This document shows positions 7,349 through 63,999 of a stretch of 64,000 nucleotides of DNA, one piece after another. Below the pieces are notes generated by a model that was not told where the DNA came from, ran no database searches, and was given only the letters and a program-made list of their open reading frames with translations. The stretch's first letter is position 1. The number at the start of each line of letters is the position of its first letter. The translations under genes and the position numbers were made by a program. Origin of the DNA: Candidatus Poseidoniaceae archaeon (GTDB lineage Archaea > Thermoplasmatota > Poseidoniia > Poseidoniales > Poseidoniaceae). The DNA is taken from positions 63,934 to 127,933 of the forward strand of contig CASICQ010000004.1 of assembly GCA_949373235.1 (NCBI GenBank). The letters run 5' to 3'.

Positions 7349-7359
7349 GAGGGAACGTC

Positions 7360-8370: not shown

Positions 8371-8374
8371 AACA

Positions 8375-13986: not shown

Positions 13987-14016
13987 CTCAATTTAATTCA
14001 AGTAACGCGAGTCAAC

Positions 14017-15168
14017 TCAAACGGTTGGCACAGGGACTTCTCGTAGGATAGCTTGAATCACTTCACCGGACTCTAGGCCCTTGATTTGATGCTCAGGCTT
14101 GAGAATAATTCGGTGTGCGATAGCCAGTTCAGAAACAGCCTTGATGTCGTCAGGTGTGACGAAGTCACGACCACGAAGGGCTGCTGCTGCACGGGATGTC
14201 TTGAGCAATGCTTGGGAACCACGGGGCGAAGCGCCGACCAGAACACGAGGATCTTCACGGGTTCGTGACACGATTTCGACCATGTACATGCGGAGAGCAG
14301 GGTCGACGTAAACGTCTTCACAAGCTTGTTGCATAGCGATAACTCGCTGTGGGTCAGTGATCACATCGACATCGACGGCGTCCTTACCACGAGCAATACG
14401 TCGGCGGAGAATTTCGTCTTCGTCAGCGCGGTCAGGGTAGCCCACGGACATCTTGAACATGAAACGGTCAAGTTGCGCTTCAGGAAGCGGGTAGGTACCT
14501 TCTTGCTCGACCGGGTTTTGAGTGGCCATAACAATGAACGGTGCAGGGAGTTTGTGAGTAACCGTACCAATGGTCACCTGCTTCTCTTGCATAGCCTCAA
14601 GCAAAGCAGCTTGGGTCTTTGGAGGAGCACGGTTAATCTCGTCAGCAAGAAGAAGGTTGCAGAACAGAGGTCCTGGCTTGAAGGTGAATTCACCCTTCTT
14701 TGCGTCGTAGATGTTGGTACCTGTGATGTCAGCAGGGAGCAAGTCAGGCGTGAATTGGACACGCTTGAAATCGCAACCCAACGCATCAGCGAAGGTGTTG
14801 GTCATCAAGGTCTTCGCCAAACCAGGGTAATCTTCGAAGAGAAGGTTACCGTTCGACAAGATGTTGATCAACACGTTGTCGATAACGTGGGGCTTACCGA
14901 TAATCACTTTCTGCACTTCAGCAGCAATCGCTTGAGAGATTGCGCCGACGTGGGTCAAGCGAGCTTTGACCTCGGGTGTGGCTTGGTGCTTCGGCTGGGC
15001 CGGAGCGGCCGGTGCTGCTGGTGCTGGGGCTGGGGCCGCTGGTGCTGCTGGTGCTGGTGCTGCCGGCATTGGTGGTGCTGGCGCAACAGGTGCTGCGGGG
15101 GCGGCTGGGGCCACTGGCATTGGCGGCGCTGGCGCGGGCGGGGCTGCGGGTGGGGTAGGGGGTTGCAT
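14017..15168 (-). CDS. moxR: MoxR family AAA+ ATPase with Pro/Ala-rich N-terminal arm
   Basis: DYPGLAKT, RVQFTPDLLPADITG, LLADEINRAPPKTQAALLEAM, ATQNPVEQEGTYPLPEAQLDRF. Confidence 0.95.
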   Translation of the reverse strand: MQPPTPPAAPPAPAPPMPVAPAAPAAPVAPAPPMPAAPAPAAPAAPAPAPAAPAAPAQPKHQATPEVKARLTHVGAISQAIAAEVQKVIIGKPHVIDNVLINILSNGNLLFEDYPGLAKTLMTNTFADALGCDFKRVQFTPDLLPADITGTNIYDAKKGEFTFKPGPLFCNLLLADEINRAPPKTQAALLEAMQEKQVTIGTVTHKLPAPFIVMATQNPVEQEGTYPLPEAQLDRFMFKMSVGYPDRADEDEILRRRIARGKDAVDVDVITDPQRVIAMQQACEDVYVDPALRMYMVEIVSRTREDPRVLVGASPRGSQALLKTSRAAAALRGRDFVTPDDIKAVSELAIAHRIILKPEHQIKGLESGEVIQAILREVPVPTV

Positions 15169-15187
15169 GTCTATTGTCCTCCGATTT

Positions 15188-26076: not shown

Positions 26077-26235
26077 AGCGACGCCTCGATGTGAGACCAC
26101 AGCGGGGTACTTTTTCAACCCATTGAGGAAATGACTGAATCAACGTCCACCATCTTCGCCCTTTGTAAAAAGGGTAAGGCTGGGCCAATAAACGGGTCAA
26201 CGCTTTTATCGAAAGAGGACTGGATTTCGTACTGT

Positions 26236-30303: not shown

Positions 30304-31677
30304 TCAGTCTTTGAATCGGGTGCCTTCGGTACCCGTCACGTGGGCCTGTGCTGGCAACGACGGGAAGGCTGCCCAATAGGACTCTCTTAATTGTTGATTG
30401 ACATCCATGCATGCAACTACGTCCCCGGGGCGGTCTGGCAGTGGTTCACTGCCGTTGAGGTGCTTAATGATCGGTTGAATGTTGGATAGATTCACCAGCC
30501 CCCAGCCGGTTTGTGTGCAGGGTGCGACGGGTGAAATTGGCATGGTTCCCGAAGTCGGATCCCAGCCGAGGTCCGGGTACCATGCTGAACGGTTGAGCGC
30601 TTCACGAACCTCTGCGTTCGAGACAGTGAATGCATTTCCGTCTCCATCGGTCCCGTTGACGAGTTGCTTCGAACGTGCGTCGGGTGCAGCACCTGATGAA
30701 GCATCATTGAACTCGTCCCGAAGCGCCTCCAGAACAAAGGAAAGAATGCCTGCTGTGCGAGGGGTTGCGAAGGATGTGCCTGAAGTTTCATGGTAGCCAT
30801 CGGTGTCTTCATGGTTCGGCAACAACTGTGTCCAATCTGCGGAGATGTCAGGGTATGAACCCGACATGATCTCCTTTTGGTCGTCGCCCTCTTCAGCGTA
30901 ACCAGCGATGCCAATCGACCATGGTGGACCTGCAGTGGCGTCTTGGATGGCAGGGGATGGGCTGTTGTCTGCAGCACCGGTGTGTATTTTCCCGAACTCA
31001 ACAACAGCTGATTCCGTCGCCCGTTCGATGCCTGGAACAGGCACTGACCCGGGCGCCCCGAATGAAGTGGTGATGATGTCAACAAGAGGTTGATCCGCCG
31101 CAGATTGTACAGCCTCTGAGGAAAAACCTTCAACGAAGAAAATGATGGCGTTTGGATTTGCGTTCAAAACCGCTCCAGTCACAGCGGAGCCGTGACCGTC
31201 GTTAGGGTCGTCCAGGATCAGAATATCGCTGTCGCCATCTGGAGAACTGCCGATGATTTTGGTACCCGGGAAGTAAACGATGTCGCTTGCAGTAAGGGTG
31301 TCCCAACATTCGCTTTTGTCCGCTTCATAGCGTTCTTGCCATGTGCCTTCAAAGGTCAAGGTACACACCTTGTTGACGCCAAGACCATCCTGAATCCATT
31401 GAGGATAGGTCTCATTGGTGCGGTAATGATCGTGATACACATTGATCCCAGTGTCAATTGGTGCGACAACAGAAAACGCTCGCCAATCATCGCCTTGTGG
31501 CGTCGTTTGTGCAGTTGTCTGCGAAGCGGGGGATTCGTTCAACATTGCCAAAACTGTAGCAAAAGAAACGACTAGAATCGTCGCTAAACTGAGGGCCATC
31601 AACTGCTTAGCCCCCATCGACTTTGCGCTTAATTCGCTGACCAAAAGCACAGCCTCCTCAGTTCCTGCCATGAACAT
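30304..31677 (-). CDS. Atypical S8 family serine protease
   Basis: APIDTG, GHGSAVTG, SGTSFATP, GWGLV; N-terminal hydrophobic segment. Confidence 0.8.
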   Translation of the reverse strand: MFMAGTEEAVLLVSELSAKSMGAKQLMALSLATILVVSFATVLAMLNESPASQTTAQTTPQGDDWRAFSVVAPIDTGINVYHDHYRTNETYPQWIQDGLGVNKVCTLTFEGTWQERYEADKSECWDTLTASDIVYFPGTKIIGSSPDGDSDILILDDPNDGHGSAVTGAVLNANPNAIIFFVEGFSSEAVQSAADQPLVDIITTSFGAPGSVPVPGIERATESAVVEFGKIHTGAADNSPSPAIQDATAGPPWSIGIAGYAEEGDDQKEIMSGSYPDISADWTQLLPNHEDTDGYHETSGTSFATPRTAGILSFVLEALRDEFNDASSGAAPDARSKQLVNGTDGDGNAFTVSNAEVREALNRSAWYPDLGWDPTSGTMPISPVAPCTQTGWGLVNLSNIQPIIKHLNGSEPLPDRPGDVVACMDVNQQLRESYWAAFPSLPAQAHVTGTEGTRFKD

Positions 31678-51890: not shown

Positions 51891-52904
51891 ATGGAGGAAG
51901 GCGTGCTTGAACTCAAAAACGTCACCTTTCGTCATTTGATTCATGCTCCAACGCGCATCAAACCGTGGAGAAAACAGCCCGGGCCGGGGGTTTTGGGTGT
52001 TTCTTTGAGGCTGCAGCCAGGTGAAATTCTTGGCCTTGTCGGGCCAAACGGTGCTGGAAAAACCACCTTACTGCGTATGATAGCAGGGGTATTACCGATT
52101 GAAAAAGGAAAGATTCATTTGAACAAGAACGGTACTTTTGAGGCGCTTGATGGCTCTTCTCTGCGCACCGTCGTCGGGCACATGCCGGAGCAGGTTCGTT
52201 GGCAAGGACGGCAAACCGTTGAAGATGCTTTATTCGAACTTGCACAAATGCGAGGAAGTTCACTCAAGCGGGTGAATGATTTGCTCCGCTTGGTCGGTTT
52301 AGCAGAACGCACCAAAACACCTCTGTCCAGTTTAAGCCAAGGGATGAGGCAACGCCTCACATTAGCCGCAGCCTTGTTGGGCACGCCCAAGTACCTGCTT
52401 TTGGATGAACCCTTGAACGGCCTCGACCCCGTCGCTGCTGCGGCCTTCATCCGATTGTTGAAGCAATTAACCACGAAGGGGGTCTCGATTGTGATCTCAT
52501 CCCATCAAGTCGAAGGCCTTCAAGCGATCACCGACCGAGTTGCATTGATGCATCGCGGTCAAGTGTTGGCATGCGGTACGCTGGAAGCCATTGCCCAGAA
52601 CCTAGGATTAACAAGCACAATCGAAGCAAGAGGGATTGGAGATGCACCAGACTTCTCTTGGTGCAACCTCACTGAACAAACAGAGGAAAAGGGGCAATGG
52701 ACTGCTGTTTTGCACGACACTCAACCAAACATGCTGGCTGAAGTTCTCAGCCGCGGGATTGACTTCACCGCCTGGATTCCGAAACCACCCGGCATTGTTG
52801 AGATGTTGTGTGCTGCAACTGGCATGGACGTCGAAGAAGTTGGATTGGATATCGCAACTGCGGCAATGCTCCCTCACCGACGCTTAGGAGGGGAGGAAGA
52901 ATGA
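51891..52904 (+). CDS. ABC-2 type transporter ATP-binding protein
   Basis: GPNGAGKTT, LSQGMRQR, LLDEPLNGLDP, ISSH. Confidence 0.93.
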   Translation: MEEGVLELKNVTFRHLIHAPTRIKPWRKQPGPGVLGVSLRLQPGEILGLVGPNGAGKTTLLRMIAGVLPIEKGKIHLNKNGTFEALDGSSLRTVVGHMPEQVRWQGRQTVEDALFELAQMRGSSLKRVNDLLRLVGLAERTKTPLSSLSQGMRQRLTLAAALLGTPKYLLLDEPLNGLDPVAAAAFIRLLKQLTTKGVSIVISSHQVEGLQAITDRVALMHRGQVLACGTLEAIAQNLGLTSTIEARGIGDAPDFSWCNLTEQTEEKGQWTAVLHDTQPNMLAEVLSRGIDFTAWIPKPPGIVEMLCAATGMDVEEVGLDIATAAMLPHRRLGGEEE

Positions 52905-53731
52905 ACGACGGAGTGCGTATATTGGCCCTTGCTCGACGCGTGTTTTTGGATCGTGTAAAGTCGACACGAATGATGATCATGCTCCCCATCTTGGTGCTCT
53001 TTTTGCCCGGAATGGCGTGGGGGTTTTCCGACCCTGATATTATTCTGCCCGGAGGCCACCAACCCGATGAACCGATGGAAGTTTTGTTTTACGCAAGCCT
53101 TGGCGTTGTGTTTGGCGCAACAATGTGTGCGGTCTTGCTGGCCTTTGATGGCGTGAGCAGGGACCGAGCAAGTGGAGTGTTCGAATTGAGGCTTGCGCAA
53201 CCTATGCCACGCACACACCAAGCAATCGCTCTGGTTCTCGGCATGTGGCAGGCTATTTTCATTCCAGTGGCAATTTTAATTTTCATCTCGATTGCAATCA
53301 TCCGTTGGCGTCTTGGCGAATGGGCAAGCGTTGGCGATGCATTGATGCATTTGTTGGCAACAAGTTTGATTCTGCTATGGTATGTCGTGTTCACCCTTCT
53401 CGCTTCTTCAAGGACCAAAGACCAAGGCACCGCCATCGCTTTTGGAGTGGGCATGTGGTTTTTATTCACCTTTTTGTGGGCCCTCGTGACAACCATGGTT
53501 GCTTACGCTTCAGGGGTCACCATTGGAGAGCAAAATGACATGCAATGGATCGCTCTTGAAGGAGCGCTTGACCTTCTCTCACCAAACGGAGTCTACCACC
53601 ATCTCCTCGAAACGAGATTGATTGACATCGACCGAGGTGTAGCCGCATGGCAGACATGGAGCATGGCCCTCGTCTGGACCGCCCTCCCCACCTGGTGGTT
53701 TATTCGCAAAATGGACGAATTGCAACCTTGA
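52901..53731 (+). CDS. ABC-2 type permease
   Basis: FDGVSRDRASGVFELRLAQPMPR, six TMs; ATG overlaps the ATPase stop (ORF track 52808). Confidence 0.85.
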   Translation: MNDGVRILALARRVFLDRVKSTRMMIMLPILVLFLPGMAWGFSDPDIILPGGHQPDEPMEVLFYASLGVVFGATMCAVLLAFDGVSRDRASGVFELRLAQPMPRTHQAIALVLGMWQAIFIPVAILIFISIAIIRWRLGEWASVGDALMHLLATSLILLWYVVFTLLASSRTKDQGTAIAFGVGMWFLFTFLWALVTTMVAYASGVTIGEQNDMQWIALEGALDLLSPNGVYHHLLETRLIDIDRGVAAWQTWSMALVWTALPTWWFIRKMDELQP

Positions 53732-53819
53732 CTGTACCCCGGCTCGATTGTTCAAAGACCGGTGCTGTTTGGTTCAACAAGGGGAAGTCTCTTTGAGAGT
53801 AGACACGCCCGCATTAAGC

Positions 53820-55790
53820 ATGGAGAAGCAACGTTTCGCCCAGACATCAATCGCATTCACGGTCATCATCCTGTTCTTGATGATGGCTGCGTCAAGTATG
53901 ATCACAGGAAATTCAACCATGATCGAATCCTCTGAAGCACCGACGAGCGCCCGTCAGGGCAGCCTTGATGTCGATTGCAGTGGTTACAAATTCGAAGATT
54001 TATTCGATTACAACTACGCTGCCTTCGACATCAACATTGGCGAAGATTGGGCCACTGGACAAATGAGCGCTGTGGCTTTTGTCAACGGAAGCAATTCCGC
54101 AATTGTTCGAGAAAACCTCGATGAGCTGTTCGATGGCACCCCCGGCGGTAACAACTCTTGGATGAGCACGGATGAACGTGAGGCTGTGCGAGCCATTGGA
54201 CCGGAATGCATTGCTGACATGGACACGCGAATCGGCATGAGGGAGGGCTTGCCCCACCGTGGTGGCGTCGATTGGAACGATTTGGAATTCGTCAAGGATG
54301 GCATTTCGCTCGATGAAGTGAACCTTGTTCCTTCCAACCACGACGAAGAACGCGATTGCCAAGACCTCCTCGCTTCATCCGATTGCAAGGAAGTGCCAGT
54401 CACCATTACCGATGATTTGCAAATACACATGTTCACGAAAGAAGACGAAACTCACAATGTTCGCTTTGATCAACTTCCCAACAGTGGGGCATCAAACTTC
54501 ACCCTCGCTCTCAACGTGACCAACATGAGCAACGCTGGCTTGGTCCTCACGTTCCCGCAACTGCAAGGATTGCGCTTGGTCAATTCTTCAATTCAAGATG
54601 ACAACGCAGAAAGCACCGCTATGCCGCTTCCAGAACCACAGTACCTCCCTGATGGACGGTTGAGGGTCATTCAAGAGGTCAGTTATGCCGCAAACGAATA
54701 CCCGATTCTTCGCAACTTGTTCTTAGATTTCACAACCATGGCACCTGAAACGAATGAAATCCCAGAATGGACTGCTGATGCCCCTGTTGACGGAACAGTA
54801 ATTCCCTTTAGCGCCGAAACACGGGATGTTGTGGAAGGCGAAATCACTGAACTTTGGGCAACCGACGACAGCGGATGGGCAATCGATTGCGTATTTGCGA
54901 ACCAAGAATGGGTTGGACAGTGGACCACTGGATTGGATGAAGAGGGGAGCCTCTTCCTCGACGGCCCTGACGACGTGGCACCAGACGCTCAAATCCAAGT
55001 TGAATGCAGCGTTGTGGATCCATTCGGAGCGTCTTCTATTGAAACTCGAAACTGGACCTTTGCTCAACCCTTTACCTCTGAAGCAACCATTTCTGAATCT
55101 GGAGATGCTCTTGAATTTACGGTCACACCTACGGGTGTTGTGAGCGAAATCTCAATCAGCGCACATGCTCACCAAACAGCAACAATGGGTGAAATGAGGA
55201 TGGCGACCGTTGCCGGTGAAGCATCGATGCTCGCCCTTCCTTTGGATGGATTGGCACCTGGGCCAGTTATGATCATGGGCCATGCTGAATCAAACGGCAT
55301 GCTCGACTACGCATTCATGCTTGACTTCAACTTGGAAAAAGCCAGCGCACCTCCGGTGATTGAACTCGAAGTGAACCTCGACGGCACCAACGCCACATGG
55401 GATGCAAGTTACCTCAAGTTCACCCTTCAAGGCAAGGTCTTGGACCCTGACGGTGAAGGCGTTGAAATGGCCCTTTCGCTGTGTGGTTATTCCACCAACG
55501 ACTTTGTCCGATCCGGTGTCGTGTGGGAAATTGATGTCAACATTGTTTCCTGTTCATCCCAAAACCCACCTGTCACAATCTACGACATAACCCTCATTGC
55601 AACAGACGATTCCGGTACCATTGCCACCATGCAAGTGCAGGTTCCAGACCCATATGCAAGCACTGAGGAACCGGTCAACGATGAGGACGAAGTCACTGTC
55701 GAAGAAGGCTTGCCTGCAGTTTCCCTGCTCGCCACATTGTCCGTGGCTCTGCTCGGTGCTGCCGTGGTAAACAATCGAAAAAAGCAGTGA
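53820..55790 (+). CDS. Secreted acidic surface protein with CTERM-like anchor
   Basis: Signal peptide, acidic beta-rich body, GLPAVSLLATLSVALLGAAVV-NNRKKQ tail (ORF track 53748). Confidence 0.75.
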   Translation: MEKQRFAQTSIAFTVIILFLMMAASSMITGNSTMIESSEAPTSARQGSLDVDCSGYKFEDLFDYNYAAFDINIGEDWATGQMSAVAFVNGSNSAIVRENLDELFDGTPGGNNSWMSTDEREAVRAIGPECIADMDTRIGMREGLPHRGGVDWNDLEFVKDGISLDEVNLVPSNHDEERDCQDLLASSDCKEVPVTITDDLQIHMFTKEDETHNVRFDQLPNSGASNFTLALNVTNMSNAGLVLTFPQLQGLRLVNSSIQDDNAESTAMPLPEPQYLPDGRLRVIQEVSYAANEYPILRNLFLDFTTMAPETNEIPEWTADAPVDGTVIPFSAETRDVVEGEITELWATDDSGWAIDCVFANQEWVGQWTTGLDEEGSLFLDGPDDVAPDAQIQVECSVVDPFGASSIETRNWTFAQPFTSEATISESGDALEFTVTPTGVVSEISISAHAHQTATMGEMRMATVAGEASMLALPLDGLAPGPVMIMGHAESNGMLDYAFMLDFNLEKASAPPVIELEVNLDGTNATWDASYLKFTLQGKVLDPDGEGVEMALSLCGYSTNDFVRSGVVWEIDVNIVSCSSQNPPVTIYDITLIATDDSGTIATMQVQVPDPYASTEEPVNDEDEVTVEEGLPAVSLLATLSVALLGAAVVNNRKKQ

Positions 55791-55850
55791 ATGCCGCTAC
55801 CGGCACCCTCAAGAGGGAACGGTTGGCCCCCACAAACTGAGAGTGAGCAT

Positions 55851-57266
55851 ATGTTTGCAGGCACCGTCCAGTCGTTGAGCCACGAAGGTGGGCTCTTAGT
55901 GTCCTTTACCGGCTCCTCTCCAGCTTTAGAATCAATCATTGTCAACCTCGAAACTGGTGATTACATCGGTAAGGTTGACGCTGTGCTTGGCAGCACGAGT
56001 GCCCCTCTTGCACACGTTGCTCACTTGGACAGAAAACTCGACATCCCTGCCTTGGTCGGCATTGAAGTCAACATCCGAGCAAAAAAGGTTCGTGAAGAGC
56101 GAAAATTTGGCGAACGGGGCAACGATCGACAAGACAGAGGACGAAATGATCGTGGCGGCCGATTTGAACACAACGACCGCGGCGGACGCTTCGAGCGAAA
56201 TGACCGCGGTGGTCGCCCAGACCGAAACGACCGTTCCAACGGTGGCGATTGGGACTGCCCCAAATGCCGAAACAACAACTTCGCTTTCCGACACGAATGC
56301 AACCGATGTGGCGAGCCACGCGGCAACGGTGGCGGAGGACGTTCCAACGACCGTGGATTCCAAGGTCGCGAACAACGGGCACCTCGATTTGAGCGAAACG
56401 ATCGTCAAAACAACCGCATGGATGGCGATTGGGATTGCCCAAAATGCCACAATGATAACTTCGCTTGGCGAACCGAATGCAATAAGTGCGGCGCACCAAA
56501 GGCAGGCGGCGGTCAAGGACGGCCACCCCGCAGAGACGACCGAAGGTCGTTCAACGACCGTGACAATCGAGGTGGCGACCGACGAGGTGGCGACCGACGA
56601 GGTGGCGACCGACGAGGTGGAGAAACATTCAACGACAACGATTGGGATTGCCCTCAATGCAACAACTCCAATTTCGCATTCAGACAAGAATGCAACCGAT
56701 GTGGAGTTCCACGAAGCGGTGGCCAAAGTCGGCCACCACGACGCGATGACCGACGAGGTGGCGATTCACGAGGTGGAAGCAGTTACGGTGGCGGAGGCCA
56801 ACGAGGCGGCGACCGACGAGGTGGCGATTCACGAGGCGGAAGCAGTTACGGTGGCGGAGGCCAACGAGGCGGCGACCGACGAGGTGGCGATTCACGAGGC
56901 GGAAGCAGTTACGGTGGTGGCGGCCAACGAGGCGGCGACCGACGAGGTGGCGATTCACGAGGCGGAAGCAGTTACGGTGGCGGAGGCCAACGAGGCGGCG
57001 ACCGACGAGGCGGCGATTCACGAGGCGGAAGCAGTTACGGTGGCGGAGGCCAGCGAGGTGGCGACCGCAGCGGTTCCGATGACCGCCGTGGTGGAGACCG
57101 ACAAGTTCGCAGTAACTTCGGTGGCGACCGAGGCGGGAACGATGGACGTCGTCCACCAAGAGAGCCACGAGAACCACGAGAATTTCGCAAAGCCCGAGGC
57201 AAGAGTTCGGGCCATGCCCACAACCGCCCACCACGCGACTTGATGGGACGAGATCGAGAAGATTGA
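55851..57266 (+). CDS. Gar1-like domain fused to three RanBP2-type zinc fingers and RGG/SYG low-complexity regions
   Basis: N-terminal AGTVQSLSHEGGLLVS...P...IVN...YIGKVDAVLG...PLAHV...LVGIEV follows the archaeal Gar1 pattern; three DWxCPxCxNxNFAxRxECNxC fingers; about 24 RGG. Repeat-unit differences are all silent in this frame. Confidence 0.8.
   Translation: MFAGTVQSLSHEGGLLVSFTGSSPALESIIVNLETGDYIGKVDAVLGSTSAPLAHVAHLDRKLDIPALVGIEVNIRAKKVREERKFGERGNDRQDRGRNDRGGRFEHNDRGGRFERNDRGGRPDRNDRSNGGDWDCPKCRNNNFAFRHECNRCGEPRGNGGGGRSNDRGFQGREQRAPRFERNDRQNNRMDGDWDCPKCHNDNFAWRTECNKCGAPKAGGGQGRPPRRDDRRSFNDRDNRGGDRRGGDRRGGDRRGGETFNDNDWDCPQCNNSNFAFRQECNRCGVPRSGGQSRPPRRDDRRGGDSRGGSSYGGGGQRGGDRRGGDSRGGSSYGGGGQRGGDRRGGDSRGGSSYGGGGQRGGDRRGGDSRGGSSYGGGGQRGGDRRGGDSRGGSSYGGGGQRGGDRSGSDDRRGGDRQVRSNFGGDRGGNDGRRPPREPREPREFRKARGKSSGHAHNRPPRDLMGRDRED
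56571..56615 (+). repeat. 15-bp tandem repeat x3 (GGDRR)
   Basis: GGTGGCGACCGACGA exact at 56571, 56586, 56601. Confidence 0.95.
56748..57062 (+). repeat. 63-bp tandem repeat x5 (DRRGGDSRGGSSYGGGGQRGG)
   Basis: Units start at 56748, 56811, 56874, 56937, 57000; only third-position differences. Confidence 0.97.
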
Positions 57267-57294
57267 TCGAGAAGTCAACGAAAGGTGTGTCGAT

Positions 57295-58329
57295 ATGGGC
57301 GCTGAAGAACACTACCTTGACGCTGTTGAAGCCTATGATGAAGGTGACTTGGAAGCAGCATACGCTTCGGCAAAACTTGCTGTCAAAGAAGACCCACAGC
57401 ATGTAGATGCATTGCAATTATGCGCAGAGGCAGCACTCCCTCCGAAGGGAGAAAGTCCGACCCTCAAGCAAGCCGCACAGTCCCTTTCCGCTGTCAAGAA
57501 GATCATCGCAATCGAACCAGAAAGAACCGCAATGTGGTTTCTTGGCGGCCGATTGCTAAGCGATGAACTGGGCTTGCTGGATGATGCCCTCGACTGGTGG
57601 CAACAACTTCGCCACCACATGCCCGATGAAGTTACACCGCTGGTTGAGCAAGCAACCTTGCTTGCAGACATGGGGTTGTACACTGAAGCTCGCTACAGAC
57701 TCGAAGCAATCACTGAAGAGAACATGGACGTCAGCGGCCAGCAATACGCTAAGATTCAACAATTACATTCGATGGTTATGTCCGCTTCAATGCAAGACCA
57801 AGCGGAATTTTTCAAACCATGGGAACGGCACCACAATGGATGGGGTGCCATCGAAATGAAGATGCGAAAACCTCCAGTCTCGGAGAGTTTCCTGTTCATG
57901 ACAACGACCGTTCCTGTTCTTTTGCTTGAGGTCGTTTTTTCCAACAGGTTTGTCGAGCAAGGGTGGGGCGGTTTTTGCCTCACCACCTTGCTGATTTTCG
58001 GTACGGTACTGTTTGGTATGCGGTTCAGCCGTAAGATCTTCAGAAGGGTGAATCGACCTGCATTCAACCTCTTGCGCGCAATGAATTTCGAAGCCTCGTC
58101 TGGCTATGTTGTGGTTTCTGAAGAAATACGAACTTCGGTGCTCTATGTCTACATCATGCAGCGAAAACCCAAAGCATGGCAGGAACGTATGCTCAAGATC
58201 ATCCAAGATAAAACCAAATTGCCTGGTGGATGGAAACAGACGCTTCCGGATTTCGACTCCCACATTGAGGAGATTGGCCATATTGAAGACGCCGATGATG
58301 AGCAATTCGAGCCCTTTGAAGAAGAGTGA
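57295..58329 (+). CDS. TPR-repeat protein with two C-terminal TMs
   Basis: AVEAYDEGDLEAA...DPQH, IIAIEPE...MWFLGG...GLLDDAL, MPDEVTPLVEQA.LLADMGLYTEA. Confidence 0.75.
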   Translation: MGAEEHYLDAVEAYDEGDLEAAYASAKLAVKEDPQHVDALQLCAEAALPPKGESPTLKQAAQSLSAVKKIIAIEPERTAMWFLGGRLLSDELGLLDDALDWWQQLRHHMPDEVTPLVEQATLLADMGLYTEARYRLEAITEENMDVSGQQYAKIQQLHSMVMSASMQDQAEFFKPWERHHNGWGAIEMKMRKPPVSESFLFMTTTVPVLLLEVVFSNRFVEQGWGGFCLTTLLIFGTVLFGMRFSRKIFRRVNRPAFNLLRAMNFEASSGYVVVSEEIRTSVLYVYIMQRKPKAWQERMLKIIQDKTKLPGGWKQTLPDFDSHIEEIGHIEDADDEQFEPFEEE

Positions 58330-58361
58330 TTTCTTCTCCGTTGGACGGTAACACACCAACC

Positions 58362-58557
58362 TCAAGCCTCTGCAAGCGATGACGTCCAGACAAAGAGCAC
58401 ACCTGCCAGAACGATGAGCAAAATCACTGCAATGAACAATCCAATGGCCACCCTGGCGCAAATCTTAGCGGCTTTAGCAACCAGCGCCGGGATGATTTGG
58501 AACTTGATTGGTGAGGGTCAAGGCCGCTTCACCAAATTCCTTCCAAAACCGGTCTGC
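58362..58557 (-). pseudogene. Frameshifted, 5'-truncated remnant of a DUF4190-like membrane protein
   Basis: One frame gives ALTLTNQVPNHPGAG then stops; an adjacent frame continues AKAAKICARVAIGLFIAVILLIVLAGVLFVWTSSLAEA*. Together they resemble the C-terminus of 43500..43922. No ATG precedes it. Confidence 0.4.
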
Positions 58558-58635
58558 TTAGATGGTGACAAGAACCTTCCTGCGTAGCTTACGCTCAACC
58601 ATTGATCGCCCAAAGGGCGCGCTTGGTCCCTTCCA

Positions 58636-61600
58636 TCATTGCTGCGTTTGAGCGTATTGAGCGGCGTATTGTTGTGCATACGTCGCTGCGGTTGCTTCAT
58701 CGTAGCCTTGGGCAACAAACTGCTGGTAATACTGCTGGTACACTGCATCGTCAGCCACAGGAGCGGCCGCCGCTGCTGCTGGAGCTGCTGCTCCAGCCGC
58801 TTGGGCAGCGTACTGCTGTGCGTAAGTTCGAGCCGTCTCTTCAGGGTAGCCTTGAGCGATGAGTTGCTGAACGTATTGTTCAGTCGCATCGAGTTGAGCG
58901 GATCCGTATCCTGCAGAACTTGCTGCAAAGTCCTTGATTGTGTCATCGCCACCGGCGCCGCCCTTTCGAAGGAAGACGAGGGTGAGAAGAATGATGATGA
59001 TCAAGGCGCCTGCTGCAATACCGATTGTCATGGTATCAACGCCGCTTTGAGTGCCGTCTGAGTCACCAGATTGTGCAGGGGCTTTCCACTCACCGTTTTC
59101 GTAGGTCCAAGCCCCACTCCATTGGCATTCACCATCTGCGTCAAACACGAACTCTCCGCCTGCTGTAAGTGCGCCTGCATCTGCTTCCAAGCCTTGACAG
59201 GCTGGAAGTTGAATTTCGATCCACTTGATTGTGACCCATCGTTCGTCATCGCCTTCGTAAATCTTGATGAAGATTCGTTGGCTTTGTGACTTGTTGGTGT
59301 ACATGTCTTCTAGGGAAAGGGTGAGGTCAAAAGTTTCAGCATCACCTGTCTTGTTTGACCGGTCCCAGGCTCCAATGAGTCCGAGGTTGTACTTGTCCAC
59401 TGCACTTGCATCGAAATCAGATTCGACGAAGGCTGCTTCGACGTAAACGTCGCCGTTTTCTGCACCCGAGAGGACTGTACCAGAGATGGTCACTGTGTCT
59501 GAGGCAACACGGGAAGCGTTGAGGGAAGCGTCCAATTGAACAACCGGTTCTTCATCGCCAAAGCCGTCAGGAACAACGACAAAGTACATTCGATACTTTT
59601 CCGAGAACTTGCCTGCTTTGTCATAAACAATTAATTCGATACGGATTTGATTCTCCGTTGTACCGCTTGGGTCCACTGTCACGTTGCGGAAGGTGTAAGC
59701 CCATGCGCCGTCGCTTGCTGCCGTTTGCTCGAAGGTGTGACCGTCGAGGCTGAACGAGTCGTCGCCGTACGGTGCATCGAAGAGAACCTTCCATTCATAG
59801 GTTTCAATTCCGCTGCCTTCCAGTGCGTCAAGGTCGGTTGAGTTGCTTGCATCAAAGTGCACTGTAACTTCACCATCTTCATCGAGAATAATTCGGTTGA
59901 CAGACCATTCCGTGTTTGAGACGGTCTTCGTTCCAACGAATTCGACAAGATCGGTGTATTCTTCACGCATGTCAATCATTGCTTCAGCAGTTGGTCGATA
60001 TTCGTCAGCGTAAACGTCGTTGGTTTCGACGGTCACCTCAATCACTCGAGCGTGCCCTGCAGCGTCGTGGAGCATCAGAGTGATGGTCCACTGCTCACCT
60101 TGAGCGCAGCCCGTAGCGGAAGAGAGGTCAGCCTTACAGAAGTTCATCACAGGCATAGCATCGGTGTTGACTGCGGTCATTCCAGTGGCCATGGTCGATC
60201 CGTCCCACGAGGTTGGGCCAGAAACAATCCAGTCGGTGCTGAGGGTTTCTGTTGTCGTGGTCGTGTAGGAGAACGTCAAATCAGCGTCGCTCTTCATGTA
60301 ACGAAGTTCGTAGCCACCGGTGCTTGGGTTGATGCCAGGCACTTGGTCGTTGATTTTCAAATCAAGACCGTTTCCAAGCGTTCCGAAGCCTTCAGGGTAC
60401 GGAGTCACTTGGTAGGCAAGCATGTTTCCGAGAAGCGGGAGTGTGGTGCTGTCAGCTCGCTCTGAGTGGGTTGAAACGTCCATGGTGGAAACTATGAGTC
60501 CACCGGAGTAGTAACTGCACACGCCGAGGATGGTGTCTTGATTGTCTGCTCCGTCGCGGATTAACCGCTGGAAGTAACCACCGTCTTCCATGTAACCGTT
60601 GCAGGTCACTGGAACGTTGTTGGCGCTGACCGATTTTGTGTTCAGCACCGCTTGAGCAACGGTTGAATCTGCATCAAAGCCTTGGAAGGCGTTGATGTCA
60701 ACGTTGTCCATCAATGGGTGGTATGGGTCGGCAAAGTCAGTTCCTGCAAAGTCAATTTGAGACTCTGGTGTGTTGCGGCTTTGCACGTCCAATCCGAATG
60801 GCAAACGTCCAGCGAGGCCTTGGTCGACACCGTAAATCTGGCTTCCTTGAGGACCAAGGTGGGCCTGCACTGTACCACCGGAGGACATGAAGCCTTCCAA
60901 GGTGGTCTTGTGTGCGGTGGAGCCCAACTTCTGGTAGTAGCCACGGCCACCGTTTTCGATGTCCTTTGCTGCGATGTCATCTTGCCAAGGCAGGACGATC
61001 TTGTCGTAGTGTGTGAACCATCCAGCGTCGAGGTATGTGTCCCAGTTGTTGATGGTGTACTGGGTGTAACTCATGCCAAGGATGTTCAGATCTTCCTTGA
61101 TGGCGTTGGTTCGAACCGAGGTGTCGGAAAGGATTGCAACATCCACGTGGTCAGCAAAGGTTGCGTGGAAGTATCGCACGTTACCTGAAGGGTTACCGTT
61201 TGCAAGTTCAGCATCGAAGCTGATGTTGTAGGTGTGGCCGTCCATCCAGCCGTTCCAGGGCGTGAAGGTAAGATCGATCTTTTGTTGGGAGTCAAGCGAC
61301 TGTGATGGCCCTGCGGTTGTGGTGTGAGCCATGCTTTGGGTCGTTTCATCATAGATGTTCATGTTGAACACATAATCACCAGCAAGCACACCGTTGGTGG
61401 CTTGTAGGCCCCAGTCGTGGGTGTAAGAACTGTCAATTGGCATTACACATTCCAAAATCTGGTCGTTCAAGCAGGTAAGTGTGTTTGGCTTTCCAAGCGT
61501 GATGTCAACGGATTCAACATTGAAGATCACTCGCTCGATGTTGTTGGATGTGGATATTTCTTGGTCGTTAAACCAAGGCTTACCAGCAGTGGTGTTGTCG

Positions 61601-63999
61601 AAGATTGTTTCCACTTCAATCATGTACACTCCAGAGAAGAACTCGTGGCTTGCGACAATCTCAGTTGCGGATTGTTCTGCGTCAACGTTGGTTCGGGAGA
61701 TGGTGTATGCGTTGTCTTCGATGAAGGTGAACTCTTGCAGCGAGATGTTGTTGAAAGCAACACCCTTGAATCCGTCATTGATACCGTTTCGTCCATCATC
61801 ATCGGACTGGAATTCGAAGTTAATGTCCACGACGGAGCCGGAGAGTGACATGCACTCATAGCCCCAGTTGATTGAACTGGCGTCCGAAGTGTTGAGCACG
61901 TACAAGTGAGTCAAGTCAATCGATGTTGTAGCAACAAGATCGTTGGTGTTGAAGAAGACGTTGTAGTTTCCACCTGTTCCGTCAGTGCTGGAGTCATCAC
62001 CAATGTAGGCGATTTCTGCGTTGTCAATCGGTTCGGAAGCGTTGACAATGTTGTCCCCGTTCTCATCAATTTGGCAGGTACCGTCTTCGTTGTAGTCGTT
62101 CCATTGACCGACCAAAACGCCAGAGTAGGTTGCGCCATCCCGAAGGATGTCGAGGGTCATTGCAGCGTAATCATTGACATCGACGATTGAAGTGCCATCT
62201 GAGTCGATTCCATAGAAGGTATCTGCATAGTACTCAAAGTTCAAGGAGACGAAGTCGCCGCTCATCGAGGTCAAGTCAATGTCTGGGATGGTCAGCGTTT
62301 CGTTGGCCCATGCGTCACCATAGCCGTTGGCGCCGGTATCACACGGATGGCCGAACCAGTAGGCGTTGTTGTTGAAAATTAGATCTTGGCAGGTTGCTTC
62401 GTTGTAGATTACACCCTTGGGATTTGCGCTTTCTTCGTATCGGTAACCATTGGCACCGCCTTCAAAGTCTTCAGCACACAATGCGGTTGGTGTACCACAA
62501 TAGACATCGGATGGTGTAGCGGAGAACACGGTTGCCTTCACATCGAAGTCCACTTCGGTGTTTCCGTAGTTGTTGGTTGCCACTTCAATGTCAAAGACAC
62601 CTTCAGCGTACAATCCACCGGGATTGAAGTATTCAATGCCCTCGACCATTGGGTCGTAGAGGTTGAAAGGTGTGATGTATCCAACGAGTTCATCGTTCTG
62701 GGCTTGCTCATCCCAACTGTTCGCAGAAAGGCTTGCAGAGATGCGATAAATTGTATCATTGAGCAAATCTGCGGTGATTGAAGCGGTGTATTCTTGACCT
62801 GGGCCAAGGTTGTTGAGGTTGATGTTGGTTTGTTGAACTTGCGGGTTGGCCAAGAAAGCAGTGTTCTGCTTGGTAATGGTCAAATTATCCACTGCGAATC
62901 CGTCTCGACCGGTCCAACGGCTTTCATTGTCATCGGAAATCGATCCGGTGAATCCTGTGCGGAATCTGAAACGAACATCGACGGTTTCCCCAGCCCATGG
63001 ACTGAGATCGAACGAACCGACGCCTTCTTCGGTGAAGTTGTTCCAGCCGTAGTAGGTGCCAGCGGAGTAGATACCGTAGTAGTAGACGCCTTCAGCAACG
63101 CCACCAAGGGCTTGCTTGTATTGACGGTCAAGGTCGAATCCGCCCCAAATTGAGTCACCTGAAGCGCATGCTCCGGAGATGTAGGCTTCTTGTGGGCAGG
63201 AGAGAATGTCCCATCCAGATTCTTCGCTGCCGATTTCAATCATGGCCACGTCATCCCAGACATCGCCTGCGAGGTAGTTTCCAGTTTGGTCAAGGCTACC
63301 GAGCACACCGTGACCGAGGTGCTGGAACAGTTCGACGCTCATGAATGCGCGGTCTGAGCCGGTCAAATCGACGTCTTCGAGGACCATAGCATCGTCCCAG
63401 TTCTTGTCGTATCCAGACCATAGGTCGCCGGAAGAGTTCGTCTTGTAGTGCCCAGCCCACATGAAGTCAGTTGGGTTCTGGTAGTTGGCAGAAACGTTTG
63501 GATCGTTGTTTCCATCGCTTGCCCCTTGGGAACTGTTGGTTTCTTCATGCCACTTGGTTGCTTGATCGATGTACTCTTCGAATGCCCAGTTGCAGCCTGT
63601 GCCACAGCCCGTCTTGACTTCTGGATTGTCCCAATCCATTTGGTACACGCTGCTGTTGGTTGAACTTGCTTCATCAACAACCTTCAATTCAAGATCGAGG
63701 GTGGCTGATTGTCCGTTGAGGACGTCCATACCAGTGTTGGTAACCGTGACGTTGATGTCACGAGTTCCTTCTCCAACGATGCCGAAGAATCTGTCAGTTG
63801 GACTGATTTCTAACGAGGTTACAGCGAGATCCTTGCTGTCCATTTCCACCACGGTGATGGTGTCGTATTGACCTTCCCAACCAAAGTTGTCGACCCAGCT
63901 TCCAAAGTCGTAACTGGTGTGGCCAACAACAATGTCGAGGGCGGAATTTGAAGGTCCTGCAAGTTGACCAACTTCGACCATGCTCGGTCGGCGCCCAGC
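58636..63999 (-). CDS. Giant acidic cell-surface protein (Ig/CARDB-like, jelly-roll and PKD-like modules, C-terminal TM), 5'-partial
   Basis: 1781 aa from ATG 63981; the frame stays open to the window edge and no signal peptide is seen. DLAVTSLEISP..VTVTNTG, FDASNSTD..YEW, DENGDNIVNASE loop, TM then a Q/Y/A-rich tail. Confidence 0.85.
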   Translation of the reverse strand, partial: AGRRPSMVEVGQLAGPSNSALDIVVGHTSYDFGSWVDNFGWEGQYDTITVVEMDSKDLAVTSLEISPTDRFFGIVGEGTRDINVTVTNTGMDVLNGQSATLDLELKVVDEASSTNSSVYQMDWDNPEVKTGCGTGCNWAFEEYIDQATKWHEETNSSQGASDGNNDPNVSANYQNPTDFMWAGHYKTNSSGDLWSGYDKNWDDAMVLEDVDLTGSDRAFMSVELFQHLGHGVLGSLDQTGNYLAGDVWDDVAMIEIGSEESGWDILSCPQEAYISGACASGDSIWGGFDLDRQYKQALGGVAEGVYYYGIYSAGTYYGWNNFTEEGVGSFDLSPWAGETVDVRFRFRTGFTGSISDDNESRWTGRDGFAVDNLTITKQNTAFLANPQVQQTNINLNNLGPGQEYTASITADLLNDTIYRISASLSANSWDEQAQNDELVGYITPFNLYDPMVEGIEYFNPGGLYAEGVFDIEVATNNYGNTEVDFDVKATVFSATPSDVYCGTPTALCAEDFEGGANGYRYEESANPKGVIYNEATCQDLIFNNNAYWFGHPCDTGANGYGDAWANETLTIPDIDLTSMSGDFVSLNFEYYADTFYGIDSDGTSIVDVNDYAAMTLDILRDGATYSGVLVGQWNDYNEDGTCQIDENGDNIVNASEPIDNAEIAYIGDDSSTDGTGGNYNVFFNTNDLVATTSIDLTHLYVLNTSDASSINWGYECMSLSGSVVDINFEFQSDDDGRNGINDGFKGVAFNNISLQEFTFIEDNAYTISRTNVDAEQSATEIVASHEFFSGVYMIEVETIFDNTTAGKPWFNDQEISTSNNIERVIFNVESVDITLGKPNTLTCLNDQILECVMPIDSSYTHDWGLQATNGVLAGDYVFNMNIYDETTQSMAHTTTAGPSQSLDSQQKIDLTFTPWNGWMDGHTYNISFDAELANGNPSGNVRYFHATFADHVDVAILSDTSVRTNAIKEDLNILGMSYTQYTINNWDTYLDAGWFTHYDKIVLPWQDDIAAKDIENGGRGYYQKLGSTAHKTTLEGFMSSGGTVQAHLGPQGSQIYGVDQGLAGRLPFGLDVQSRNTPESQIDFAGTDFADPYHPLMDNVDINAFQGFDADSTVAQAVLNTKSVSANNVPVTCNGYMEDGGYFQRLIRDGADNQDTILGVCSYYSGGLIVSTMDVSTHSERADSTTLPLLGNMLAYQVTPYPEGFGTLGNGLDLKINDQVPGINPSTGGYELRYMKSDADLTFSYTTTTTETLSTDWIVSGPTSWDGSTMATGMTAVNTDAMPVMNFCKADLSSATGCAQGEQWTITLMLHDAAGHARVIEVTVETNDVYADEYRPTAEAMIDMREEYTDLVEFVGTKTVSNTEWSVNRIILDEDGEVTVHFDASNSTDLDALEGSGIETYEWKVLFDAPYGDDSFSLDGHTFEQTAASDGAWAYTFRNVTVDPSGTTENQIRIELIVYDKAGKFSEKYRMYFVVVPDGFGDEEPVVQLDASLNASRVASDTVTISGTVLSGAENGDVYVEAAFVESDFDASAVDKYNLGLIGAWDRSNKTGDAETFDLTLSLEDMYTNKSQSQRIFIKIYEGDDERWVTIKWIEIQLPACQGLEADAGALTAGGEFVFDADGECQWSGAWTYENGEWKAPAQSGDSDGTQSGVDTMTIGIAAGALIIIILLTLVFLRKGGAGGDDTIKDFAASSAGYGSAQLDATEQYVQQLIAQGYPEETARTYAQQYAAQAAGAAAPAAAAAAPVADDAVYQQYYQQFVAQGYDEATAATYAQQYAAQYAQTQQ

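What the first reader, a model, noticed from the sequence alone, without database searches (positions are those of the whole stretch)
55851..57266. Archaeal Gar1 fused to RanBP2 zinc fingers and RGG/SYG tracts: a FUS/TAF15-like RNA-binding protein
Seen: an ~80-aa N-terminal domain matching the archaeal Gar1 pattern (G.V......G.L.V....P......V......+G.V..V.G....P...+....VG..+), then alternating RGG tracts and three C4 fingers, ending in five DRRGGDSRGGSSYGGGGQRGG repeats (about 24 RGG by my count). Known: archaeal Gar1 is normally a bare ~75-100-aa subunit of the Cbf5/Nop10/L7Ae pseudouridylation RNP; RGG flanks are a eukaryotic Gar1 trait; RanBP2 finger + RGG + [G/S]Y[G/S] is the hallmark of the phase-separating FET proteins. 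Inference: a possibly undescribed archaeal RNP organiser that could form nucleolus-like condensates linking H/ACA modification to RNA capture, either by convergence or by gene capture from eukaryotes.
Basis: partly seen in the sequence, partly recalled or inferred. Interest (0 to 1): 0.92.

Follow-up and report, generated by a model that had tools for sequence, protein, structure and literature searches.

The report
Archaeal Gar1 with RNA-finger, RGG tail
A marine Group II archaeon (Poseidoniaceae) encodes a very diverged Gar1, normally a small subunit of the RNA-guided pseudouridine machine. It carries a roughly 390-residue disordered arginine/glycine tail with three FUS/ZRANB2-type RNA-binding zinc fingers, a design so far described only for eukaryotic proteins, and I found no paper describing it.

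Summary
ORF 55851-57266 (+) encodes 471 aa: an 82-aa N-terminal barrel, three RanBP2 zinc fingers (Pfam E 1.7e-23), 24 RGG, and five identical 21-aa DRRGGDSRGGSSYGGGGQRGG repeats.

The barrel is a Gar1 homologue:
- AlphaFold pLDDT is 90, and the ten best PDB fold matches are all Gar1 of H/ACA RNPs.
- A clade profile against Thermococcales Gar1 gives hhalign 94.5%, E 8e-8.
- PDB hmmsearch puts P. furiosus Gar1 on top.
- It stays below the Pfam and NCBIfam cut-offs, which is why NCBI calls it "hypothetical".

The architecture is not a misassembly. Relatives exist in 220 GTDB species, the best 80 all Poseidoniales, in conserved gene order, including a long-read MAG. Metatranscriptome contigs cover the gene.

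The fingers keep every GGU-contacting residue of FUS/EWS/ZRANB2. A conserved C-terminal motif (RKARGK..GHAHN..P) is unexplained.

The FET analogy is only partial. There is no RRM and no SYGQ domain, and the SYG repeats are a local expansion. Condensate formation is untested. Capture of the Gar1 barrel from eukaryotes is not supported.

Genome-wide search was shut, so I could not test whether this is the only Gar1 or whether it binds Cbf5. I found no paper describing it.

The parts
55851..57266 (+). Whole gene: Gar1-ZnF-RGG protein, 471 aa plus stop. An in-frame ATG at 55791 would add 20 aa but is not used by homologues.
55851..56096 (+). Gar1 beta-barrel domain, aa 1-82.
   Evidence: AF2 pLDDT about 90. 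Foldseek top 10 are Gar1 of H/ACA RNPs: 2ey4_D E 6e-4, 2hvy_B TM 0.84 and rmsd 1.6 A. hhalign A5 vs Thermococcales Gar1 94.5%, E 8e-8. PDB hmmsearch top hit is PfGar1, E 1.7e-4.
56097..56240 (+). Disordered R/D/G/N linker 1, aa 83-130, with three NDRGGRFE-type 27-nt repeats.
   Evidence: pLDDT below 50; TRF 27-nt repeats 56141-56233
56241..56330 (+). RanBP2-type zinc finger 1, aa 131-160 (WDCPKCRNNNFAFRHECNRC).
   Evidence: pLDDT 85-92
56406..56510 (+). RanBP2-type zinc finger 2, aa 186-220 (WDCPKCHNDNFAWRTECNKC). Its closest PDB sequence is the FUS finger.
   Evidence: 6g99_B E 4.4e-7
56511..56627 (+). Disordered linker 3, aa 221-259, with four GDRRG units (15-nt repeat 56568-56620).
56628..56726 (+). 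RanBP2-type zinc finger 3, aa 260-292 (WDCPQCNNSNFAFRQECNRC).
   Evidence: RBM10 and ZRANB2 finger hits
56748..57062 (+). Five tandem 63-nt / 21-aa repeats DRRGGDSRGGSSYGGGGQRGG, aa 300-404. Disordered RGG/SYG tract.
   Evidence: All six DNA differences are synonymous. pLDDT below 50.
57183..57233 (+). Conserved C-terminal short motif FRKARGKSSGHAHNRPP, aa 445-461. Function unknown.
   Evidence: Invariant R446, G450, G454, H455, A456, H457, N458 and P461 in 58 full-length members. Present in 106 of 121 proteins. Consensus. Occurs only in this gene in 836 kb of DNA.

Best explanation
This is the Poseidoniales version of Gar1, the subunit of the box H/ACA pseudouridylation RNP that sits on the catalytic domain of Cbf5 and receives its thumb loop during product release. 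Its 82-aa barrel has diverged so far that standard family models miss it.

The tail that follows the barrel in ordinary archaeal Gar1 proteins is short and basic. Here it has grown into a roughly 390-residue 'beads-on-a-string' extension: three independently folded RanBP2-type zinc fingers separated by disordered RGG/RD linkers, a recently expanded RGG/SYG repeat, and a conserved C-terminal short motif.

Shown: domain identities, disorder, conservation across the order, and transcript coverage.

Inferred:
- The barrel binds Cbf5 as in P. furiosus.
- Each finger binds a GGU/GGN trinucleotide in single-stranded RNA, as the FUS, EWS and ZRANB2 fingers do.
- The RGG tracts add unspecific RNA affinity.
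- Together they tether the H/ACA RNP, or Gar1 alone, to G-rich single-stranded stretches of substrate RNA, probably pre-rRNA. This would raise local concentration or chaperone RNA folding.
- The C-terminal motif recruits an unidentified partner.
For: Gar1 identity:
- AF2 model of the N-domain has pLDDT 89.6.
- Foldseek against PDB: ranks 1-10 are all Gar1 from archaeal, yeast, human and insect H/ACA RNPs, best TM 0.82-0.84 and rmsd 1.6-2.1 A over about 75 residues.
- All 22 family N-domains hit only Pfam Gar1 among relevant families.
- Divergent relatives hit only Pfam Gar1 and NCBIfam Gar1 equivalogs.
- hhalign of the clade profile against Thermococcales Gar1: 94.5%, E 8.2e-8, colinear over 74 columns.
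- PDB hmmsearch top hits are PfGar1, E 1.7e-4, and yeast Gar1.
- In reverse, a Thermococcales Gar1 HMM searched against all ORFs of 836 kb of Poseidoniales DNA hits this gene only, once per locus, in 68 loci.
- JGI names some members 'rRNA processing protein Gar1'.

Orthology-like pattern:
- One copy sits at a syntenic locus in up to 77 of 80 species.
- 220 GTDB species encode a relative.
- Relatives in Thalassarchaeaceae and other marine Thermoplasmatota have the same barrel with only a plain basic tail (P0183, P0186, P0366, P0383), like ordinary archaeal Gar1.

Fingers:
- PF00641 x3, E 1.7e-23.
- Best PDB sequence matches are the FUS, ZNF265/ZRANB2 and RBM10 fingers.
- RNA-contact positions D4, N14, aromatic 17, R20 and N24 are 97-100% conserved over 137 distinct family fingers. 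PMC6384913 shows that ZRANB2, EWS and FUS fingers with these residues bind GGU at about 0.2-0.3 uM as pairs, and that arrays bind more tightly.

Disorder: everything outside the barrel and fingers has pLDDT below 50.

Real gene:
- Synonymous-only variation among the repeats.
- Metatranscriptome contigs at 100% identity in three RNA runs.
- The architecture is present in a long-read MAG (L044).
Against: - Pfam and NCBIfam Gar1 scores are far below the curated cut-offs (12-23 bits against 29.3).
- The window's own copy is not picked up by the Thermococcales HMM at E<=1, although 68 orthologues are.
- I could not search the genome for a second, canonical Gar1, nor for Cbf5, Nop10, L7Ae or H/ACA RNAs.
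- No RNA-related gene lies nearby; neighbours are an ABC-2 transporter, unknown large proteins and a TPR/membrane protein.
- Rfam finds no H/ACA RNA in the window.
- Cbf5 binding, RNA binding and any effect of the tail are inferred, not shown.
- The RNA contigs have depth similar to the DNA runs and run into the upstream gene, so DNA carry-over cannot be excluded.
Confidence: 0.68

Rival explanations
1. A Gar1-fold paralogue that is not part of the mature H/ACA RNP. It could be a Naf1-like assembly factor that occupies the Gar1 site on Cbf5 transiently, or a stand-alone general RNA chaperone or RNA-binding protein that uses the barrel for another contact. A canonical Gar1 would then exist elsewhere in the genome.
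For: - The barrel is strongly diverged and below all curated Gar1 thresholds.
- The Naf1 Gar1-domain (2v3m) is also among the fold hits.
- There is no H/ACA-related genomic context.
- The genome-wide count of Gar1 homologues could not be made.
Against: - Gar1 chains outrank Naf1 in fold similarity (TM 0.71-0.75 against 0.59-0.68).
- Naf1 is known only from eukaryotes (established knowledge).
- Sister lineages have the same barrel with an ordinary short basic tail, as expected for the lineage's regular Gar1.
- No short Gar1-like second form on long contigs turned up among 78 short relatives; those seen are fragments or frameshifted copies.
- A Thermococcales Gar1 HMM finds nothing else in 836 kb, though that is only a small part of each genome.
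Confidence: 0.2
2. The N-domain is an unrelated small beta-barrel of the translation-factor domain II, PRC/RimM or F1-ATPase N-terminal type. It would resemble Gar1 only by fold convergence, making the protein a lineage-specific zinc-finger RNA-binding protein with no link to pseudouridylation.
For: - F1-ATPase beta N-terminal barrels, IF2/eIF5B and RimM appear lower in the Foldseek list.
- A plain HMM of the narrow family (A2) did not reach Gar1 in PDB.
- The whole-library profile search found only 119 relatives and no canonical Gar1.
Against: - Those other barrels align with TMq 0.47-0.60 and rmsd 3-5 A, against 0.71-0.75 and 1.6-2.5 A for Gar1.
- Sequence-level profile comparisons reach Gar1 specifically and colinearly.
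- Pfam and NCBIfam sub-threshold hits are to Gar1 models only.
- The reciprocal HMM search is specific.
Confidence: 0.05
3. Assembly artefact: a chimera or collapsed/expanded repeat that joins a small Gar1 gene to unrelated low-complexity sequence.
For: - The repeats break short-read assemblies: 22 of 79 loci end inside the gene.
- Unitigs break at 56597-57023.
- Several public copies are frameshifted.
Against: - The same architecture, with N-barrel, 1-4 fingers and the C-terminal motif in frame, is seen in more than 100 independent assemblies, including a long-read MAG and the 2-Mb MG-II chromosome record.
- The flanks are syntenic.
- Only the repeat copy number is uncertain.
Confidence: 0.02

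Closest known systems
Archaeal Gar1 of the box H/ACA RNP (Pyrococcus furiosus PF1791; PDB 2EY4, 2HVY, 3HAY, 2RFK, 3MQK; Pfam PF04410)
   Same: Same six-stranded barrel (TM 0.82-0.84, rmsd 1.6-2.1 A). It aligns colinearly and shares the core Gly/Pro/hydrophobic positions H, G14, L16, P24, L26, G-x-V-x-x-V-x-G and P52. The domain is N-terminal and followed by a basic tail.
   Different: About 21% identity, below the Pfam and NCBIfam cut-offs. The tail is about 390 aa rather than about 25 aa. It contains three zinc fingers, 24 RGG, tandem repeats and a conserved C-terminal motif. Binding to Cbf5 is not shown.
Eukaryotic GAR1 (yeast Gar1p, human GAR1; PDB 3U28, 7BGB, 8OUE)
   Same: A Gar1 core joined to glycine/arginine-rich (GAR/RGG) disordered sequence. 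The literature treats GAR domains as a eukaryotic addition linked to the nucleus and nucleolus (PMC7194090, for fibrillarin).
   Different: Eukaryotic GAR1 has GAR domains on both sides and a eukaryote-specific helix 1 after the barrel that contacts the dyskerin thumb loop (PMC10811338). Here the extension is only C-terminal, no helix is predicted after the barrel, and zinc fingers are present, which eukaryotic GAR1 lacks. The barrel scores closer to archaeal Gar1, so convergence is the simplest reading.
FET proteins (FUS, EWS, TAF15), in their RGG-ZnF-RGG part
   Same: A RanBP2-type finger with the FUS/EWS residue set: aromatic at position 19, plus D4, N14, F17, R20 and N24. Finger 2 is the best PDB sequence match to the FUS finger (E 4e-7). 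The fingers are flanked by RGG tracts, and a conserved basic motif sits at the extreme C-terminus.
   Different: No RRM and no N-terminal SYGQ prion-like domain. Only five SYG, in a local repeat expansion that the family does not share. Three fingers instead of one. The C-terminal motif has no PY. The N-terminal domain is Gar1. The protein is not a member of the family.
ZRANB2 (ZNF265) and RBM5/RBM10 RanBP2 fingers
   Same: Multiple ssRNA-binding RanBP2 fingers in one chain, with conserved GGU-contact residues.
   Different: Those are eukaryotic splicing factors with RS or RRM/OCRE domains. Here the fingers are attached to an RNA-modification RNP subunit in an organism without a spliceosome.

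Membership tests
Gar1 (H/ACA RNP subunit; PF04410) | Gar1-type six-stranded beta-barrel fold | tested here: met
   AF2 pLDDT 89.6. The Foldseek top 10 are all Gar1; TM 0.82-0.84 to PfGar1.
Gar1 (H/ACA RNP subunit; PF04410) | Statistically significant sequence homology to bona fide Gar1 | tested here: met
   hhalign of the clade profile against Thermococcales Gar1 gives 94.5%, E 8.2e-8. hmmsearch against PDB puts PfGar1 on top, E 1.7e-4. The reciprocal HMM search is specific.
Gar1 (H/ACA RNP subunit; PF04410) | Score above the curated Pfam / NCBIfam cut-off (an operational criterion, not a biological one) | tested here: not met
   12.3-16.6 bits against 29.3. Relatives score 14-23 bits. NCBIfam equivalogs score about 20 bits against more than 100.
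Gar1 (H/ACA RNP subunit; PF04410) | Binds the catalytic domain and thumb loop of Cbf5 within Cbf5-Nop10-L7Ae-guide RNA | not testable with these tools
Gar1 (H/ACA RNP subunit; PF04410) | It is the genome's Gar1 orthologue, with no other Gar1, and Cbf5, Nop10 and H/ACA RNAs are present | not testable with these tools
   The genome search was shut. Indirect evidence only: a single syntenic copy per locus, finger-less relatives in sister lineages, and no second hit in 836 kb.
RanBP2-type zinc finger, ssRNA-binding subclass (PF00641; ZRANB2/FUS type) | W-x-C-x2-C-x3-N-x6-C-x2-C zinc ribbon matching PF00641 | tested here: met
   Three matches, E 1.7e-23. Pattern at aa 134, 194 and 265. pLDDT 85-93.
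RanBP2-type zinc finger, ssRNA-binding subclass (PF00641; ZRANB2/FUS type) | RNA-contact residues D4, N14, aromatic 17, R/W19, R20 and N24 (numbering of PMC6384913) | tested here: met
   97-100% conserved across 137 distinct family fingers. Position 19 is F/W in 90%.
RanBP2-type zinc finger, ssRNA-binding subclass (PF00641; ZRANB2/FUS type) | Binds GGU/GGN in single-stranded RNA | not testable with these tools
   Needs EMSA, ITC or SELEX with purified fingers.
FET family (FUS/EWS/TAF15) | N-terminal SYGQ-rich prion-like domain with many [G/S]Y[G/S] | tested here: not met
   Only five SYG, all inside the RGG repeats. Y is 1.3% of the tail. Only 9 of 121 family members have three or more.
FET family (FUS/EWS/TAF15) | RRM domain | tested here: not met
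   No RRM in Pfam or NCBIfam scans.
FET family (FUS/EWS/TAF15) | RanBP2 finger flanked by RGG tracts | tested here: met
Eukaryotic GAR1 | GAR domains on both sides of the core, and the eukaryote-specific helix 1 after the barrel | tested here: not met
   There is no N-terminal extension, because the protein starts at the barrel. No helix is predicted after residue 82. The helix 1 role is taken from PMC10811338.

The most novel reading that the evidence does not exclude
Poseidoniales have independently turned an snoRNP-type subunit into a multivalent scaffold. In this reading, several GGU-binding fingers strung on RGG/RD disorder, plus a conserved C-terminal docking motif, cross-link nascent rRNA and H/ACA RNPs into a membrane-less, nucleolus-like ribosome-biogenesis compartment in an archaeon. 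That would mean GAR-type tails on rRNA-modification RNPs evolved for RNA capture or condensation, not for nuclear or nucleolar targeting.
Probability: 0.15. Interest if true: 0.9.

Novelty: new variant of a known kind. Interest (0 to 1): 0.6.

Why it matters
GAR/RGG tails on the rRNA-modifying RNP proteins Gar1 and fibrillarin, and FUS/ZRANB2-type RNA fingers, are treated in the literature as eukaryotic features tied to the nucleus, the nucleolus and splicing (PMC7194090, PMC6384913).

Here the combination sits on Gar1 throughout one of the most abundant groups of ocean archaea. This gives three things:
- A natural, nucleus-free test case for what such tails do: RNA capture, chaperoning, or condensation.
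- An explanation for why Gar1 appears 'missing' or 'hypothetical' in NCBI annotations of these genomes.
- A compact, naturally arrayed set of RNA-binding fingers.

It also has a practical side for genome curation. The gene is a recurrent contig breakpoint and frameshift site in Poseidoniales MAGs.

Tried and rejected
- Plain sequence searches do not reach Gar1. phmmer of the N-terminus against PDB found nothing. An HMM of the narrow family (A2) against PDB gave only noise. The whole-library HMMER search with A2 found 119 relatives and no canonical Gar1. Homology appeared only after divergent relatives were added to the profile.
- Genome-wide tests (only Gar1?
- Searching the big protein collection with PfGar1 returned only Thermococcales. 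It could not show whether Poseidoniales also have a canonical Gar1.
- Searching with the clade profile for short relatives returned fragments, frameshifted copies, and complete forms with plain basic tails. It found no distinct short paralogue.
- Full-length AF2 was run to see whether the C-terminal motif docks on the barrel. It does not (pLDDT about 47-50).
- Genomic context gave no functional hint. There are no tRNA or Rfam hits in the window.
- Repeat copy number could not be checked with Logan unitigs, which break in the repeats.
- Misassembly was rejected.
- FET membership was rejected.
- Eukaryotic origin of the barrel was rejected as unsupported.
Full report
**Observation**

The + strand ORF 55791..57266 is best read from ATG 55851. 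All homologues begin MF.GT there, and a GAGTGA box lies 5 nt upstream.

- 24 RGG.
- Three W.C..C...N......C..C fingers, at aa 134-153, 194-213 and 265-284.
- Five identical 21-aa units DRRGGDSRGGSSYGGGGQRGG, aa 300-404.

Tandem Repeats Finder reports a 63-nt unit x5.1 at 96% identity. Pfam finds three RanBP2 zinc fingers at E 1.7e-23. The six DNA differences among the five units all lie at third codon positions and are synonymous. Under equal chances per codon position, (1/3)^6 is about 0.001, which confirms the frame and suggests selection on the peptide.

**Is the N-domain Gar1?**

Plain HMM evidence is weak. Pfam Gar1 gives E 0.15 for the whole protein and 0.007 for the domain alone, below the 29.3-bit cut-off. 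phmmer against PDB finds nothing.

Four independent lines settle it:
1. An AlphaFold model built on 22 family N-domains is confident (pLDDT 89.6). Its ten best PDB fold matches are all Gar1 chains of H/ACA RNPs: P. furiosus 2EY4 and 2HVY (TM 0.82-0.84, rmsd 1.6-2.1 A), then yeast, human telomerase and insect. Naf1 and other small barrels score clearly lower.
2. Every family member, and every divergent relative tested, hits only Gar1 models in Pfam and NCBIfam, though below threshold.
3. I widened the profile with divergent relatives found by a whole-library HMMER search. hhalign against 20 Thermococcales Gar1 proteins then gives 94.5% probability and E 8.2e-8, colinear over 74 columns. hmmsearch against PDB puts PfGar1 first (E 1.7e-4) and yeast Gar1 next.
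4. In reverse, the Thermococcales Gar1 HMM was searched against every ORF of 836 kb of Poseidoniales DNA. It hits this gene family only, once per locus, in 68 loci. The window's own copy is not among those at E<=1.

**Is the architecture real and conserved?**

- 142 proteins at 90% clustering share the N-domain. Nearly all carry PF00641, and those with names come from Poseidoniaceae, Poseidoniales or 'Euryarchaeota' MAGs.
- 220 GTDB species representatives encode a relative. The best 80 are all Poseidoniales-type records, among them the 2-Mb MG-II chromosome record and a long-read MAG.
- Complete copies have one to four fingers (one in 24, two in 58, three in 35, four in 3).
- Gene order is conserved: ABC ATPase, ABC-2 permease, a 656-680-aa unknown protein, this gene, a TPR/membrane protein, and a giant ORF. 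These neighbours are found in 40-77 of 80 species.
- Three metatranscriptomes hold contigs at 100% identity over the gene outside the repeats. This fits transcription, but DNA carry-over is not excluded.
- The repeats are a technical hazard. In 22 of 79 loci the contig ends inside the gene. Several public copies are frameshifted into the EATEEVA... alternative frame. Unitigs break at 56597-57023. A near-identical strain has four units rather than five. Copy number here is therefore uncertain, but the architecture is not.

**Anatomy of the tail**

Full-length AlphaFold on 58 sequences gives four folded beads: the barrel (aa 1-82) and fingers at aa 131-160, 186-220 and 260-292, all with pLDDT 85-93. 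Everything else has pLDDT below 50.

The best PDB sequence matches to the fingers are FUS (E 4e-7), ZNF265/ZRANB2 and RBM10. Over 137 distinct family fingers the consensus is x-D-W-x-C-P-x-C-x-N-x-N-F-[AS]-[FW]-R-x-E-C-N-x-C-G-x-P-[RK]. In the numbering of PMC6384913, conservation is:

| Position | Residue | Conserved |
|---|---|---|
| D4 | D | 100% |
| N14 | N | 99% |
| 17 (stacking aromatic) | F | 97% |
| 19 | F/W, as in FUS/EWS | 90% |
| R20 | R | 100% |
| N24 | N | 98% |

That paper shows that ZRANB2, EWS and FUS fingers with these residues bind GGU, or GGG, at 0.2-0.3 uM as pairs, and that longer arrays bind more tightly. GGU-type ssRNA binding by each finger is therefore a well-founded inference, but it was not shown here.

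The tail is 25% G, 21% R and 12% D, with net charge about +30.

**An extra conserved element**

The family ends with [FY]-R-[KR]-[AS]-[RK]-G-[KN]-x-x-G-H-A-H-N-x-x-P, placed 17-25 residues from the C-terminus. Most members follow it with P-R-[RK]-[YF] and an acidic end.
- Eight of its positions are invariant in 58 full-length members.
- It is present in 106 of 121 proteins.
- Variants occur even in distant relatives.
- It is not predicted to dock on the barrel.
- It occurs nowhere else in 836 kb of these genomes.

It looks like a short linear motif for an unknown partner. I have no explanation for it.

**Wider family and origin**

The whole-library profile search finds only 119 clusters, so this is a narrow clade. 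Its distant members come from Thalassarchaeaceae (MGIIb) and other marine Thermoplasmatota. They show a gradient: the barrel with only a plain K/R/S-rich tail of about 60-80 aa (P0183, P0186, P0366, P0383, P0386), the barrel with one divergent zinc ribbon (P0216), and the barrel with several canonical fingers.

This is what one expects if the barrel is the lineage's ordinary Gar1, whose basic tail was elaborated step by step. It argues against capture of a eukaryotic GAR1. The barrel also scores closer to archaeal than to eukaryotic Gar1. It lacks the eukaryote-specific helix after the barrel (PMC10811338). Where the fingers came from is unresolved. RanBP2-type fingers are known in some archaeal proteins.

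**How it most likely works**

In P. furiosus, Gar1 binds Cbf5, does not touch the guide RNA, and receives the thumb loop in the open state to promote substrate turnover (PMC12710931; PMC10811338). I infer that the Poseidoniales barrel does the same. I also infer that the tail adds what archaeal Gar1 otherwise lacks: several sequence-selective (GGU/GGN) and unspecific (RGG) contacts with single-stranded RNA. These would tether the RNP to substrate RNA, most plausibly pre-rRNA, or help it fold.

Confidence that the domains are what I say is about 0.95. Confidence in the functional reading as the lineage's H/ACA Gar1 with an RNA-tethering tail is about 0.68.

The main rival is a paralogue beside a canonical Gar1 (0.2). 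It could not be excluded because genome-wide search was shut.

The FET analogy holds for the RGG-finger-RGG part only. There is no RRM and no SYGQ domain. The SYG units are a recent local expansion seen in few relatives. Condensate formation is possible for a multivalent RGG/finger protein, but it is untested. I put that boldest reading at about 0.15.

**Novelty**

Ten full-text searches found no paper that describes Gar1 with zinc fingers or RGG tails in archaea, or Gar1 in Marine Group II. The literature states that GAR domains are missing from archaeal homologues, for fibrillarin, and ties them to the nucleus (PMC7194090). Public annotation is 'hypothetical protein', 'zinc finger Ran-binding domain-containing protein' or, in JGI, 'rRNA processing protein Gar1'.

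Earlier notes of this scan describe the same family in at least six other genomes, with the same reading. I treated them as leads and re-derived the claims here. This window adds:
- The SYG-type repeat expansion, with synonymous-only variation.
- The statistics on the C-terminal motif.
- The profile-level proof of Gar1 homology.
- The reciprocal HMM test.

Noticed in passing
It is invariant in 58 full-length members, and variants occur in distant relatives. It is not docked in the AF2 model. Partner unknown.
   Followed up: partly
window 56748-57062; loci L001, L004, L005, L022 and others: The gene is a recurrent assembly breakpoint. In 22 of 79 species loci the contig ends inside it, and Logan unitigs break at 56597-57023. 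Repeat units 2 and 4 are identical in DNA, so the copy number (5) is unverified. A near-identical strain (P0002) has 4.
   Followed up: partly
P0108, P0112, P0115, P0107, P0032, P0010; L008: Public homologues are frameshifted within the RG repeats and read through in the alternative frame (EATEEVA...). These are probably sequencing or assembly errors that spoil annotation.
   Followed up: partly
window 51891-63981: Strongly conserved gene order across Poseidoniales: ABC ATPase, ABC-2 permease, a 656-680-aa protein with no Pfam hit, the Gar1-ZnF gene, a 344-aa TPR/membrane protein, and a 1781-aa ORF (58636-63981, minus strand) with no Pfam hit. Neighbours are found in 40-77 of 80 species.
   Followed up: partly
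window 26131-30303 (+): A 1390-aa ORF with no Pfam match at E<=1e-5, lying between two subtilase-family (S8) genes (24076-26076 and 30304-31677).
   Followed up: no
window 55939-57243 (+2 frame) and 55932-56726, 56680-57417 (- strand): Long overlapping ORFs of 434, 264 and 245 aa in other frames of the gene. They are by-products of the GC-rich repeats, not genes. The same alternative frame appears in frameshifted database entries.
   Followed up: yes
P0216 family (Thalassarchaeaceae); P0195, P0201, P0202: Sister-lineage Gar1 relatives carry different zinc ribbons, WVCKKCRTLNSKTWKCTNCG and CPKCKNHNYA..VCNRSNC, that lack the GGU-contact residues. The tail is evolutionarily plastic.
   Followed up: no
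window 6551-10405 and 12664-16774: Ordinary metabolism around the gene. One cluster holds archaeal-type shikimate genes: DeoC-family aldolase, DHQ synthase II and chorismate synthase. Another is a MoxR AAA / DUF58 / DUF4350 cluster.
   Followed up: no
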